Notes: generated from the sequence alone by a model not told the origin. Positions 1 to 58,062 are shown, numbered from the whole stretch's first letter. The stretch: DNA of 63,236 nucleotides, filler included, from Octopus bimaculoides (GCF_001194135.2; 3 parts of 3 records of this genome joined end to end with filler, not necessarily neighbours in it); one strand, 5' to 3'. A program made the numbers and translations.

Positions 1-1135
1 AGTTCCATTATCCAAGGAAACTGGTGTGTAGAAGTGGTAGAAATGCTTCCTGTCCGTGGTATGTAAATTCCAATAGGTGTTCATATTTTGTTATCACAAA
101 TGAAAAGTGGGGAGACGTAGATTCCATGTGCTGTTCATTCAAAGGGATCTTGTGGGGTGAATGAAACTTTAAGAATGTAGAGGTAGTATTAAGTGGATAG
201 CGAGGGGAGAAGAGATGTGTATGTTAAAATGAAGAGAGAGGTCAAAGAAGGAAAAGGTGAGAATAGAGGGAGAGAAAGAGGGAGAGAAAATGAAAACAAG
301 AGAAAATGAAAACAAGAGAAAATGAAAACAAGAGAAAATGAAAAAGTGTAAGGAAGTTAAAAATGAAAGAAGTGATAAAGGTAAAAAAAGGAGTGTAATG
401 TCTTTAGTTTTGGTGAGTAGGAGTAAGAGCAAAGTTTTTTGTGAATGGATGGATATGTCCTTAAGAGAGATGCCAAGGAAATGTTTATCCATTATATAAG
501 CGTTAGCTGTTATAAGTGCTTGTATTAGCAAGGAAGCAAAGGTATGAGAGGTATTGGTAGTATTCTTCCCTTCTGTTTTGTGGTTTACTACTCACTTTCG
601 ATAAACCCCCTATCATACCTTTTTTTGTACCCGTCCTTTAATGCCATTCTAACATATCATCTCACCTCACCTCACACATATTCATTACTTACATTCTTAT
701 CTCTTCCCTACTTCTCACCCATCCCCCTCATAATATCTTGTTCACCAACTCACACACCTTTTTTCTTACATTTTCTTCTTTTCTTTTTCACACTTCCTTA
801 CACTTTTTCATTTTCTCTTCCTCCTTCTTTCCTTCTATTCTCACTTTTACACACCAGTTTCCTTGGACAATGGAACTGCAACTATAATATGTTTATACGC
901 TTATAATTTTATTTCTACATTCATCCTCTTATTTCCCTATATACTCCTCATTTGCTTCCTTTGCCAACATAAATCCTTGTATTGAACTCTAATATTTCCC
1001 TCTATTTAACCAACTCACATCGTCTCTGATGAAGGGATATCCCTAATATCCCAGAAACAGCTGTAAGACTAACTTTCTCTTTATAAATGTCCTGAAAATA
1101 CCACGCAGCCTTGGCTTCGCTCTCATTTTATTTAA
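1..1135. mobile_element. Inverted (head-to-head) pair of Penelope-like non-coding fragments; the + arm ends in a hammerhead and a short tail before (CA)n(TA)n
   Basis: 1-36 is the reverse complement of 842-877 (CACTT[C/T]TACACACCAGTTTCCTTGGA[T/C]AATGGAACT). About 250-360 matches the reverse complement of about 790-850. The left half is purine-rich and the right half pyrimidine-rich. Hammerhead at 1022-1069. PLE assignment is inferred from the hammerhead-tail-microsatellite layout. Confidence 0.6.
1022..1069 (+). ncRNA. Minimal type I hammerhead ribozyme (PLE-type)
   Basis: Stem I GTCT/AGAC; core CTGATGA; A; stem II GGGATA-TCCCTAA-TATCCC; A; GAAA; palindromic stem III ACAGCTGT; cleavage triplet GUA. 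Confidence 0.8.
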
Positions 1136-1334
1136 CACACACACACACATATATATACATCTATATATATNNNNNNNNNNNNNNNNNNNNNNNNNNNNNN
1201 NNNNNNNNTATATATATATATATATTAGGTTATATCTTCATATTTTTTGTGTGTTCAGATTATTTACACTGTAAATTTGATATTCTATGTGCGAATTTAT
1301 TGGCCGCCTTCATGAACTGCTTAAAATGTTTATA

Positions 1335-2615
1335 GTTCTCCCGGCGACAACAGAGGGATTCAAGACAGGCCGCCCTGAGAGCTCCTCTATCCTGATTATC
1401 TTGCTCTTATAGCTGAACCACTACCAGAACTAGAGCAGAAGTTCCAGGTGTGGAAGCAAGGTCTAGAATCGAAAGGCCTTTGAGTTAACCTGGCAAAAGC
1501 CAAAATCTTAGTGAGTAGGAAGGCGGACAAATCCCTTCAGATAGATGGTCCTGCTCGATCTGTAGAAAAGGCATAGGTAGAAACTCCATAAGATGTACCC
1601 AGTGTAAGCTATGGACACATAAGAGGTGCAGCAATATCAAAGGAAGATAGTTTGTGTGTGGAAGGTACAATAAACACCAAAACTGTACAGAAATTAGATT
1701 CCATTACATACCAGGGAAGAAAACTAGAAGTAGTCGATAGCTTCCGTTACCTAGGTGACCAAGCCAGTAGCGGGAGTGGATGCGCTGAGAGCACAGCTGC
1801 TAGAATAAGAATAGGCTGAGCAAAGTTCAAAGAGCTCCCACTTCTGCTGGTAATAAAGGGCCTCTCGCTCAGATTGAAAGGCAGACTGTATGATGCCTGT
1901 GTGCGAACGGCCATTCTTCACAGCAGTGAAAATTGGTCCGTGACTGCTGAGGACATGCGTAGGCTTGTAAGAAATGAAGCTAGTATGCTCCGCTGCATGT
2001 GTAATGTCATTGTGCATGCACTGTGTAAGCGTCCTGGGAGAAAAGTTGGACATAAGAAGCATCAGCTGTGGTGTGCAAGAGATACGATTGCCCTGGTATG
2101 GTCATCTGTTACGTATGGATGAGGACAGTTGTGTGAAGAAATGTCGCACTCTAACGGTGGAGGGAACCTGTGGAAGAGGCAGACCCAGGAAGACATGAGT
2201 TGAGGTGGTGAAGCACGGTCTTCGAATATTGGGCCTCACAGAGACAATGACAAGCAACCGAGACCTTTCGAGATATGCTGTGCTTGAGAAGACCAGTGCG
2301 ATCGTAGTTGTGGCCGATCTGACTGGCACCCGTGCTGGTGTCAGGTAAAAAAAACACCGTTCGGGCGTTGGGTTTCATGAAAGCAGTGACAGGTAACCAA
2401 AACCCTTGGAGACATACCGTGCTTGTGAGACCGTAGTCGTGGCCGATGCTGGTATCAGATCAATGGCACCCGTGCCGGTGGCACGTAAAAAAACACCCAC
2501 TACACCCGGAGTGTATAGCGTTTGGAAGGGCATCCAGACGTAGAAATCTTGCCAAATCAGGTTGGTGCTTGGTGCAGCCTCCCCCGTCCAACCTATGCTA
2601 ACATGGAAAGTGGAA
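1335..2615 (+). mobile_element. 5'-truncated, decayed RTE-clade (RTE-X-like) LINE: RT C-terminus plus 3' UTR
   Basis: Broken frames read ...ELLYPDYLALIAE (YADD region)...WKQGLESKG...VNLAKAK, then a Cys/His insert (CSICRKG...CTQCKLWTHKRCS), then VVDSFRYLG, KGRLYDACVRTAILHSSENW, WYGHLLRM and GRGRPRKT. The 3' tail is homologous to 36918-37355. Confidence 0.9.
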
Positions 2616-2616
2616 A

Positions 2617-2646
2617 CACACACACACATACACACACACACACACG

Positions 2647-2710
<64 letters not shown>
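2617..2710. repeat. (CA)n microsatellite at the RTE 3' end
   Basis: Direct reading of the sequence. Confidence 0.95.
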
Positions 2711-2712
<2 letters not shown>

Positions 2713-3109
2713 GTAAATTTAATGCATATGTATATGAAATATAAAATAGTTTTATTTTCAGTGGGGGGTTGCTTTCCACATATTAAAATGAAAAATGTTT
2801 CGAACACAAGATCTGCAAAAGATAGCAACTTTAAAATCCACCTCTGTGAAGAAATAATGACATAGTTTATATTTTAGATGGGTTACGCCCGAGGGAAAAT
2901 GGTGGAATTGTCACAACTGAAATGCTTTTGATCATAGGTCCGCTTGATCAGGGATGACCTGAAGCTAAACAAAAATACTAACTGTTATATGAATATGATC
3001 AATCACTCGTAGTACAATTTAGCTGAAAGTTGCTAAGCAACATTAAAGAGAATCGACAGAAGATGTTTTCTCTGAGATAATTTCCAGAAATAAATGCTTT
3101 CATACATAG

Positions 3110-3325
3110 GTATAAGACCAAAATTTTGATTGGAATGACCGCAGTATATGACTGATGCAAAGGCGATTATAAGTGGCTGCTTTTACTTATTAGTATTGCA
3201 GACACGGAAGGAATGAAAGGCGAATTTGACCGCGGTGAGATTTGAACTCAGAATATTAAGAGCCTGGACAAATACCGAAATGTATTTTGCTCGACGCTCT
3301 AATGATTCTACACGTCTATCGCTTT
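3110..3325 (-). mobile_element. Old, diverged SINE family A copy
   Basis: Contains ATTTGAACTCAGAA (B-box reverse complement) and a GAATGAAAGGC core match to the younger copies. Confidence 0.6.
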
Positions 3326-56219: not shown

Positions 56220-56310
56220 TTACCACAGGAGAGACATGCAACCATTATGATGAAGTGGATACCAGGAGGAGGTAAAAGACTAAGAGGAAGACCAAAGAAG
56301 ATGTGGCACA
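56220..56310 (+). mobile_element. Short RTE ORF2 C-terminal remnant
   Basis: MKWIPGGGKRLRGRPKKMW. Confidence 0.5.
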
Positions 56311-56509
56311 GCATGGTATGACAGTGTTGTAAGTTGGTCCCAGTGAAGCTAGAAAGCTTGTTTCCCATTGTGTTGACAGCACTTGAGGAGCTAAGAGACT
56401 ATGTTCAATTATTATATTAATCAGTGAACTTCATATTTATAATGAATTTATCATTTTCAGTGTGTGTGTCAGACATGCATTCAGTTGTGACTGCTTTTGA
56501 TCTTCTGTG

Positions 56510-57064
56510 AGGAAGGGAGACTCAGATTTTGCTGCAACTTTTTTCCTTTGCAGTTTCTCACTCAAAATTCATTGGCAGGAGCTCCAGGATACACAAGTGA
56601 TATCAACAAGTTCATCATTTGTTCAGTGATGTTCCTCTAACATCAGTTCATGAATTTTCATGATGTTTTCCATCGCTCAGGAGGTTGACGGTTGCCCTGA
56701 AGGAGTTTGGTTTCAAGTGACAAGTGACCATTCCTAAAGTGTGAAAACCACTCGTAAACTTGTGTTTTGCTCATGGTAGCTGTTTGAAGTGTGACAACTG
56801 TTTTGACTGTTGTCTTCCCCAACAGATAACAGAATTTCACGGAAGCATGCTGTTTCTTCATTTTTGTCATCTCAAAAACAGACAAACAAAGGAGAAGCGC
56901 TGCGAAAGAAAGATGCACCACGTGACAGTACAACTTGACTCAATGCCACCAGTTGGCAGACTTATGCTTGAAGGTCTCATCAAGTGGTTTCTAAAAGCAG
57001 AAGCCTGAACGACAATGGGATGTCCCACAGAAAACGTTTCTGGTTACTTTTGGGTACCCCCTCA
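56510..57064 (-). mobile_element. 5' fragment of the same mariner family as 46487-47718
   Basis: TA|TGAGGGGGTACCCAAAAG terminus; MTKMKKQHASVKFCYLLGKT...VYEWFSHF. Aligns with about 47160-47718. Confidence 0.85.
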
Positions 57065-57095
57065 TAACATTATATATATATATATATAATGTTAA

Positions 57096-57651
57096 GGAGA
57101 ATTCAGGTAGGTTCAACAATTTATATAAACATATCTTCTGCCATGGATTGATATATATCAGTTTTTCAATATACAAATGTTTCAGTCATTAAAATATCAA
57201 AACATATTAAAAATCTATGAATACCTAAATATATAAAAATTTAATATACATATATAAATAGACAAATGAGATTAATTTATAATAGTATAGATGTATAAAG
57301 ATATATATATATATAAAGATATTTTGAGTTAGAATCATATTAAAAGGTGTTATAGAATGGTATTGTAAAGCATATTTAAAAATAAATATGCCCTTACGAA
57401 AAGGTGAATAAAATAAAGTCTTATGAAAAGAGCAAAATCATAACATTGAGATGAGATTTTTCAGAAAATATGTGTAATTAATTCAAGGAAATAGGTAACC
57501 CTCTTTAGATAAAGTGTCTATGAATATTTATGCATTCATAGATTTTTAACAATTTAATGATTGATGCATTTGTATATTTTAAAAACTGATATACATCGAT
57601 CCATGGTGCAAAATATGGTCATATAAATTGTTGAACCTATTTGAATTCTCC
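57096..57651. mobile_element. 556-bp MITE with TTAA TSD, GG...CC ends and ~140-bp TIRs (Kolobok-like)
   Basis: TTAA|GGAGAATTCAGGTAGGTTCAACAATTTATAT ... ATATAAATTGTTGAACCTATTTGAATTCTCC|TTAA. Confidence 0.7.
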
Positions 57652-57838
57652 TTAACACTTTTTGTATCTTGCATCTTGAGCTTTTATCTGAGCACATCAA
57701 ATTACTACTTATACAATACACAAAGAAATTTTTCTATATTATATATATATAAATATATGTAGGTATGTATATATCTCTCTTTATGTAATATATATAAATT
57801 CATATGTATGTATATATATATATATCTATCCATCTATC

Positions 57839-57873
<35 letters not shown>

Positions 57874-57880
57874 ATGTATT

Positions 57881-58062
57881 CTGTTGCGAGACGCAACAAA
57901 AATTTTAGGAAAATAAAAATAAGGAGTAAGTAGAAATTTTACCGGTGAGTGTGTTAAATTATAAGGCACAAAAAGAAAATGACTCTCCCCAGACACAACA
58001 GAATATGCTTCAACACACGAACTCACATAAAGAATCTTGCAAACCAAATCCCAAAACGAAAT
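57881..58062 (+). mobile_element. Probable PLE terminal fragment beginning inside a truncated hammerhead, ending at (TA)n
   Basis: Hairpin GTTGC-GAGAC-GCAAC followed by AAAA-ATTTTAGG (stem II plus a GAAA remnant). The 5' core is missing. Confidence 0.4.

What the first reader, a model, noticed from the sequence alone, without database searches (positions are those of the whole stretch)
1022..57909. A hammerhead 'ecosystem': about 9-10 motifs from at least 4-5 families, with family-specific palindromic stem III
Seen: motifs at 1022, 7545, 16528, 29236, 29568, 32530, 35767, 43377 and 43607, plus a partial one at 57883, about one per 6-7 kb. The loopless stem III differs by family: ACAGCUGU (1022/43 kb), ACGU (7.5/16.5/32.5 kb) and ACAUAUGU (35.8 kb). 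Established: PLE-associated minimal hammerheads with palindromic stem III are thought to cleave as dimers. Inference: the palindrome could be a family-specific pairing code, so that only tandem or trans copies of the same family activate each other. Dispersed dead copies could then pair in trans with active PLE transcripts.
Basis: partly seen in the sequence, partly recalled or inferred. Interest (0 to 1): 0.75.

Follow-up and report, generated by a model that had tools for sequence, protein, structure and literature searches.

The report
Penelope hammerhead fossils, no palindrome code
The ten motifs are real, mostly decayed copies of the small self-cutting-type RNA carried by many families of Penelope-like jumping genes, but their palindromes are shared between families and vary within one, so they are not a family code; the most abundant lineage found here has a normally fixed core letter changed, and whether it still cuts is untested.

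Summary
Observation confirmed, interpretation partly supported. All ten sites belong to hammerhead-bearing repeat families, but they are 8 insertions on two unlinked stretches, only 4 keep a whole motif, and the window is 2-3 times richer than a genome sample. Families are 3' ends of Penelope-like elements (PLEs) or a retrozyme-like tandem. Palindromic stem III and dimer cleavage are published, and the scan reached a similar verdict on another genome (e1-8664523). The palindrome is not a family code: 31 families use 15 stem IIIs, 38 of 465 family pairs share one, one family carries three amplified alleles (GAUC, GUUC, GUAC), and some sister families are predicted to pair better with each other than with themselves. 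In a swapped dimer stem I is also intermolecular, so discrimination comes from stem I plus stem III, at lineage level, probably by drift. Copies decay neutrally, are mostly solo or inverted, and trans pairing is predicted to be weak. Newest point: the ACGU lineage (7545, 32530) has U at core position 6 in 7,471 exact genome matches versus 1,114 with A, with position 7 taking all four bases; I found no report of a natural A6U core. Cleavage untested.

The parts
1022..1069 (+). Family A1 type I hammerhead, whole: 4-bp stem I, CUGAUGA, extra A, 7-bp stem II, a second extra A before GAAA, stem III ACAGCUGU, A17 at 1065; within a repeat copy spanning about 550-1150 with an inverted part at the window start
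   Evidence: 2,256 first-look candidates genome-wide
7545..7582 (-). Family B1 minimal hammerhead, core CUGUUGA (U at position 6, as in the family majority), extra A, 4-bp stem II, loopless ACGU, A17 at 7550; the about 250-bp copy (7400-7650) sits inside an older PLE ORF
   Evidence: 1,355 candidates
6345..8437 (+). Broken older PLE reading frame (N-terminal and RT pieces) interrupted by the B1 copy
   Evidence: tblastn to RT-GIY-YIG ORFs of L327 and L331, whose domains are shown
16528..16562 (-). Family B2 minimal hammerhead, whole, core CCGAUGA, loopless ACGU, C17 at 16532
29236..29284 (-). Family D hammerhead, decayed copy; first unit of a 332-bp direct tandem
29568..29616 (-). Family D hammerhead, decayed copy (A13 changed); family has 6-7-bp stem I and a 10-nt stem III palindrome inferred from CpG decay; old, retrozyme-like
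32530..32559 (-). Family B3 hammerhead, 5'-truncated inside the core; young family with U6 core and ACGU
34093..34254 (-). C-terminal piece of a PLE GIY-YIG endonuclease (78% to the L328 ORF), probably a separate insertion
35767..35856 (-). Family C hammerhead, whole: canonical core, 10-bp stem II, stem III ACAUAUGU, U17 at 35773; young family (96-99%)
   Evidence: 2,036 candidates
43377..43432 (-). Family A2 hammerhead with mutated core; left arm of a divergent inverted pair
   Evidence: 907 candidates
43605..43660 (+). Family A2 hammerhead with mutated core and stem III; right arm of the same inverted pair
57883..57909 (+). 5'-truncated remnant (stem II onward, G12 changed) of family H: U3-A8 core, stem III AAUU, U17; other copies lie beside GIY-YIG exons

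Best explanation
The sites are dispersed, 5'-truncated 3' ends of at least eight Penelope-like element families (one retrozyme-like), each carrying a type I hammerhead whose self-complementary stem III likely lets two copies in one head-to-tail transcript swap strands and cut. Shown: motifs, families, PLE endonuclease exons upstream in sense for lineages A, B and H, neutral decay of single copies, solo or inverted arrangement. Inferred: selection acts only on the few master elements and only for self-pairing, so palindromes drift by compensatory steps through tolerated mismatches; because the swapped dimer pairs one copy's 5' stem I strand with the other's 3' strand, de facto discrimination is stem I plus stem III and works between lineages, not between sister families, as a by-product of divergence. 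Inferred: cleavage is slow or dispensable for copying (copies span the cut site), which would let an attenuated core such as U6 amplify. The window's copies are almost all inert fossils.
For: Descriptor 4 vs 0.0 in shuffles, sample 19 vs 0-1. Endonuclease remnants 480-1,020 bases upstream in sense of B-lineage motifs in 5 loci (frame), family H and other U3-A8 motifs beside GIY-YIG hits, A-lineage beside RT/EN pieces in L009, L028, L040. 15 stem IIIs in 31 families; of 38 pairs with identical stem III, 10 stem-I-compatible both ways (all sister families), 9 one way, 19 not. GAUC/GUUC/GUAC alleles in one family, GAAC 0 of 100; GUUC and GUAC share flanking diagnostic sites and predicted helix energies rank GUUC self (-9.7) above GAAC self (-7.7). 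0 of 41 changed stem IIIs remain palindromic. Direct same-strand partner within 1.5 kb: A1 0/30, A2 2/25 (one a split hit), B1 1/25, C 0/25, D 6/25. Literature: consensus families, palindromic helix III, inverted pairs, low dimer activity (PMC4209133); catalytic mutants do not impair insertion and uncleaved RNA is the main template (PMC11167929).
Against: No cleavage was measured; no full-length master with two tandem hammerheads was recovered for any window family; families C and D have no linked ORF in my loci. At least 9 of 16 possible 4-nt central palindromes appear among 100 listed matches, which drift alone may or may not explain. Several sister or stem-I-sharing families do differ in stem III by 7-13 kcal/mol (12 pairs listed, 9 of them above 6), as a selected code would give. 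A and C motifs can close 2 bp plus a tetraloop and may cut as monomers, as invertebrate retrozymes do (PMC7229834). 11 of the 31 family sequences rest on 1-2 copies.
Confidence: 0.78

Rival explanations
1. Selected self-recognition code: stem III palindromes (with stem I) were driven apart so that only same-family transcripts activate each other, and dispersed copies pair in trans with active transcripts.
For: High palindrome diversity; only 6 of 465 family pairs lie within 1 kcal/mol of their homodimers when both helices are summed; G-lineage sisters share stem I yet differ GUAC vs GAUC (6.9 kcal/mol).
Against: Shared palindromes across families and full cross-compatibility within lineages A and B; F11 x F48 predicted 4.9 kcal/mol better than the mean of their homodimers; amplified non-palindromic GUUC allele that bridges both neighbours; neutral decay of copies; predicted homodimer free energies only -7.8 (A1), -5.4 (C), -4.2 (D) and positive for B (without tertiary contacts or protein); no dip at the cut site in RNA-seq.
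Confidence: 0.1
2. The motif is kept mainly as a structure (protein binding, template positioning or RNA dimer formation) and catalysis is secondary; the U6 lineage would be non-cutting.
For: U6 in 7,471 matches vs A6 in 1,114; natural A6C is slow (PMC3088659); lineage A has an extra base before GAAA and family C a GUU site; insertion is independent of cleavage in vitro and cleavage needs the PLE protein (PMC11167929).
Against: In the U6 lineage the rest of the catalytic core is constant across subfamilies while position 7 takes all four bases (U 70, G 16, C 9, A 5 of 100 listed) and family majorities at 17 are A, C or U, the pattern expected of a still-catalytic fold.
Confidence: 0.2
3. Monomer cleavage: families with 4-6-nt inserts (A, C, D) cut alone through a 2-3-bp stem III with a tetraloop, and the palindrome is incidental.
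For: Two (A, C) or three (D) intramolecular pairs are possible; invertebrate retrozyme hammerheads with 2 bp plus tetraloop cleave as monomers (PMC7229834); a non-palindromic UGAC-loop family exists in this genome.
Against: Loops are palindromic far above chance (40 of 100 listed 4-nt inserts vs 1 in 16; 96 of 100 for SS inserts vs 1 in 2); lineages B and H have no loop at all.
Confidence: 0.15
4. Chance motifs in an AT-rich genome.
For: The loose core pattern alone matches many unrelated places.
Against: Zero descriptor hits in shuffles, zero reversed-pattern controls for family patterns, thousands of family copies.
Confidence: 0.01

Closest known systems
Minimal hammerheads (min-HHR) in pLTRs of metazoan Penelope-like elements (Cervera and de la Pena 2014, PMC4209133; read parts 1-2 of 4 and 3 supplement passages)
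   Same: Type I topology, short stem I, extra base after A9, palindromic 15.2-16.2 and loop 3, many consensus families per genome, mostly single truncated copies, opposite-strand pairs 100-700 bp apart, U3-A8 variant
   Different: U6 core fixed in the most abundant lineage found; second extra base before GAAA in lineage A; a stem III switch caught with its intermediate; these were not in the text I read
Dimer-cleaving small PLE hammerheads (Lunse, Weinberg and Breaker 2016/2017, PMC5785218; not held, seen only as cited in review PMC6765202)
   Same: Diminished palindromic stem III, PLE link, dimer cleavage
   Different: Cannot say whether it lists U6 cores or discusses heterodimers; not read
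Repeat-type hammerheads with palindromic stem/loop III and natural core variants (Perreault et al. 2011, PMC3088659; passages and section 8)
   Same: Legend of Fig. S8C already lists palindromic stem III of several ribozymes as dimer-compatible; A6C, U4C and U3-A8 variants
   Different: A6C was a single phage example; A6U is not named in the section read
Metazoan non-LTR retrozymes (Cervera and de la Pena 2020, PMC7229834, passages; Li et al. bioRxiv 10.64898/2026.07.22.740005, parts 1-2 of 5)
   Same: Family D: direct tandem of about 300-450 bp, 6-7-bp stem I, no ORF found
   Different: D is old (about 74-81% between copies) and decayed; expression as circles not tested
PAc Poseidon element of Anolis (PMC11167929; passages)
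   Same: Copies span the cut site; no RNA-seq ends at the site
   Different: Different host and families; protein dependence not tested here

Membership tests
PLE min-HHR (Cervera 2014) | Type I fold with core CUGANGA / GAAA / NUH | tested here: met
   Met for family majorities A1, C, D, E and window copies 1022, 35767; A2 and B2 carry the known C4 variant; H the known U3-A8 variant
PLE min-HHR (Cervera 2014) | A at core position 6 | tested here: not met
   Not met for B1/B3 (7545, 32530): U6 in 7,471 matches vs A6 in 1,114. They are a variant of the family, not textbook members
PLE min-HHR (Cervera 2014) | Unpaired base between A9 and stem II, G10.1-C11.1 pair | tested here: inconclusive
   Met for B, E, H; C and D lack the extra base; A has an extra base on both sides, or a mismatch at 10.1-11.1
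PLE min-HHR (Cervera 2014) | Palindromic 15.2-16.2 and loop 3 | tested here: met
   All window families; 25 of 31 families perfect, the rest one central mismatch or wobble
PLE min-HHR (Cervera 2014) | Lies in the terminal repeat downstream of an RT plus GIY-YIG ORF | tested here: inconclusive
   Endonuclease remnants upstream in sense for B and H, RT/EN pieces beside A; none linked for C or D; no full-length element recovered
PLE min-HHR (Cervera 2014) | Copies mostly single and truncated, some opposite-strand pairs | tested here: met
   97 solo of 130 loci, inverted pairs all divergent
PLE min-HHR (Cervera 2014) | Cleaves as a dimer, not a monomer | not testable with these tools
   Needs in vitro assay; RNA-seq searches show no ends at the site but the library is unstranded and fragmented
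Non-LTR retrozyme (family D) | Direct tandem repeats of 150-450 bp each with a type I hammerhead | tested here: met
   332 bp in the window; 6 of 25 loci have a direct partner, 5 of them at 295-446 bp
Non-LTR retrozyme (family D) | Expressed as linear and circular RNA; loop 1-loop 2 tertiary contacts | not tested
   No RNA was laid on D; tertiary contacts not examined
   38 of 465 pairs share stem III; three alleles in one family
   Energies only; some heterodimers predicted equal or better

The most novel reading that the evidence does not exclude
The most abundant hammerhead lineage found in this genome runs on a natural A6U core that still cuts, slowly, and attenuated ribozymes are favoured because uncut RNA is the template for copying; alongside, stem I plus stem III form a two-arm address that keeps dozens of co-resident PLE lineages from activating each other and that evolves stepwise through U-U mismatch intermediates.
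Probability: 0.3. Interest if true: 0.6.

Novelty: new variant of a known kind. Interest (0 to 1): 0.32.

Why it matters
The ecosystem itself is ordinary for a PLE-rich animal genome. Two points are useful to specialists. First, the role of PLE hammerheads is an open question; a lineage with thousands of copies and a changed core position, next to A6 sisters with the same stems, is a ready natural experiment on whether cutting helps or hinders spread. Second, the GAUC, GUUC, GUAC series is a clean snapshot of a compensatory switch in an intermolecular helix, and supplies matched constructs for homo- versus heterodimer assays. Standard descriptors that require A6 would miss the largest lineage found here.

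Tried and rejected
Rfam scan: only one sub-threshold hammerhead hit; not a useful detector here. Pfam on 9 window ORFs: no RT or GIY-YIG. First descriptor (C3-G8, AC...GU only) found whole motifs in 3 of 30 GIY-YIG loci and made me dismiss 57883 as a mere hairpin; homologs showed it is a U3-A8/AAUU remnant, so family and density counts are lower bounds. Run search: no RNA holder listed on record. RNA-seq on family C: 102 reads, mostly 90-95% alike, no end pile-ups, inconclusive. Full-dimer energies: the A2 row is invalid because the script mis-set its stem II and was dropped; rows with unpaired stem I are not active folds; only homodimer values for A1, B, C, D are quoted. 18 of 49 seed clusters (duplicates of the same family, mutated singletons, doubtful hits) were left out of the 31-family matrix. 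Long-ORF regions gave no full-length element with two tandem hammerheads; many gaps. Lunse et al. not held. Literature searches for a heterodimer or code idea and for A6U found no such report; supplements of PMC3088659 gave no text hit and file 1 of PMC4209133 was not searchable, so figures there may bear on the A6U claim. A reading of lineage B with core UUGAAGA (U3-G8) was rejected because it breaks stem II; the CUGUUGA register restores stems I and II and aligns with A6 sisters.
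Full report
Setting. The window is a pack of three stretches (1-31586, 31687-58251, 58352-63236); the first lies on contig C18 and the second on C4 of a 2.34-Gb, microsatellite-rich animal genome (octopus-like by my recall of its repeats; no call names it).

Observation. All ten sites are hammerhead-family sequence. Four are whole motifs (1022, 7545, 16528, 35767) against 0.0 in 100 shuffles. 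The rest are broken: 32530 starts inside the core; 43377 and 43607 are the arms of one divergent inverted duplication with mutated cores; 29236 and 29568 are a decayed 332-bp direct tandem; 57883 is a truncated remnant of a family with a U3-A8 core and stem III AAUU. That is 8 insertions from 8 families in 5 lineages (A, B, C, D, H). In 100 evenly placed 10-kb stretches (857,503 non-N bases) the descriptor found 19 whole motifs, 17 palindromic, against 0-1 in five shuffles, and a family library found 39 sites, one per 22 kb, against 9 in the window. The window is thus 2-3 times richer than average; by extrapolation the genome holds tens of thousands of whole motifs.

What they belong to. First-look candidate counts are 2,256 (A1), 907 (A2), 1,355 (B1), 2,036 (C) and 98 (D). 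B-lineage motifs lie 480-1,020 bases downstream, in sense, of GIY-YIG-type endonuclease remnants in five loci; family H and other U3-A8 motifs lie beside Pfam GIY-YIG hits; A-lineage motifs lie beside RT and endonuclease pieces in three loci. C and D have no linked ORF in my loci; D has direct partners in 6 of 25 loci, like a retrozyme. For the others partners are rare in direct orientation (A1 0/30, A2 2/25 with one split hit, B1 1/25, C 0/25) and inverted partners are always divergent, the known 5'-inverted PLE insertion (PMC8557442, passages). An inverted pair cannot supply two sense motifs in one transcript, so the 43-kb pair is no dimer.

Is the palindrome a code? A matrix of 31 families (18 of 49 seed clusters left out; 11 families rest on 1-2 copies) has 15 stem IIIs, 25 families perfectly palindromic; ACGU serves 7, ACGCGU 4, ACCGGU 4, ACAGCUGU 3. 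Pattern searches show the same sharing genome-wide and a wider descriptor adds further palindromes. Of 38 pairs with identical stem III, 10 are stem-I-compatible both ways and all are sister families (A1-A3, B1-B4, F12/F25), 9 one way, 19 not; mean predicted heterodimer penalty is 9.3 kcal/mol from stem III and 14.2 from stem I; only 6 of 465 pairs are within 1 kcal/mol on both. So discrimination exists, at lineage level, and rests on both arms. Against selection for a code: F11 x F48 is predicted 4.9 kcal/mol better than the mean of their homodimers, and in the G lineage (112 matches, control 0) one family with the same stem I, core and stem II carries GAUC 17, GUUC 14 (12 independent loci), GUAC 8 and 1 other of 40 listed copies, with GAAC in 0 of 100 (hand count). 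GUUC and GUAC copies share flanking diagnostic sites and GAUC is shared with outgroup subfamilies; predicted helix energies are -15.1, -9.7, -14.9 and -7.7 for GAUC, GUUC, GUAC and GAAC self-pairs, and GUUC pairs slightly better with either neighbour than with itself. This is a compensatory switch through the tolerated U-U intermediate: selection for self-pairing in masters, not for exclusivity. For the code reading: 9 of 12 stem-I-sharing pairs with different stem III carry penalties above 6 kcal/mol and at least 9 of 16 possible 4-nt palindromes are in use; a dated phylogenetic test is still needed.

Trans pairing of dead copies. Stem III has changed in 41 of 161 copies of A1, A2, C, B1 and E and none of the 41 stays palindromic, so copies are not under selection. 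Predicted free energies for forming the active dimer from folded monomers are -7.8 (A1), -5.4 (C), -4.2 (D) and positive for B (no tertiary contacts or protein; A2 row invalid and dropped). One RNA-seq run (6% read, unstranded) gave 2,073 reads on a young B3 copy with flat depth across the cut site and no end pile-up; family C gave 102 reads, inconclusive. Cleaved products could be lost, so this is lack of support, not disproof.

The U6 lineage. Read in the register that restores stems I and II, B1 and B3 have core CUGUNGA: 7,471 exact matches against 1,114 for A6 sisters, controls 0 (the U6 pattern left position 17 free). Position 7 is U 70, G 16, C 9, A 5 of 100 listed (hand count), loop II and position 17 differ between subfamilies, and the rest of the core is constant in family majorities, as expected if the fold is still maintained. 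A natural A6C is slow but active (PMC3088659 section 8). I found no natural A6U in searches; Lunse et al. was not held and some supplements were unseen. An earlier scan note reports an amplified A6C family in another genome (e1-9834341, untested here). Since catalytic mutants do not impair insertion by a PLE protein in vitro and uncleaved RNA is the main template (PMC11167929, passages), and copies here span the cut site, attenuation may cost little or help; this is inference.

Verdict. Real, mostly known biology (PMC4209133, parts 1-2 read; review PMC6765202, passages; PMC7229834, passages; bioRxiv 10.64898/2026.07.22.740005, parts 1-2 of 5). The palindrome-only family code is not supported; a two-arm, lineage-level discrimination as by-product is the better reading; the U6 core is a modest new variant awaiting an assay. 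Interest 0.32.

Noticed in passing
L292, L297, L298, L303, L309, L322, L333: Several PLE families beside GIY-YIG exons carry U3-A8 cores with stem III AAUU, ACAUGU, ACCGGU, AACCGGUU or ACUAGU; missed by C3-G8 descriptors.
   Followed up: partly
window 1022-1069 and 43377-43432: Lineage A has an extra A between stem II and GAAA in family majorities; some relatives have C there. Effect on cutting unknown.
   Followed up: partly
L198, L026 (families F11, F48): Odd-length quasi-palindromes with a central A or U; the two sister families are predicted to pair better with each other than with themselves.
   Followed up: partly
G000:C1:8745389-8745574 and C1:16067520-16067671: Direct pairs of B-lineage motifs only 156 and 122 bp apart: candidates for cis dimers.
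   Followed up: no
L209, L214 versus L179, L180: Family E occurs with stem III ACGU and with ACGCGU: a second within-lineage palindrome switch.
   Followed up: no
L290:1753: 41 RNA-seq reads join adapter-like sequence about 22 bases from the predicted B3 cut site; unexplained, possibly a library artefact.
   Followed up: no
L275 and relatives: A canonical-looking hammerhead family with a non-palindromic UGAC loop, a likely monomer cutter.
   Followed up: no
window 53325-54174: Mariner-like HTH piece (PF17906, E 7e-4) with 126-nt inverted arms.
   Followed up: no
window 9961-11139: Two open frames without Pfam match, perhaps a retroelement ORF1 remnant.
   Followed up: no
window 37245-37355 and 39683-39793: 97% inverted pair of a short repeat containing hammerhead-like words but no stems.
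   Followed up: partly
window 9000-27100 and 60783: About ten copies of one short interspersed repeat (families D16, D19, D20).
   Followed up: no
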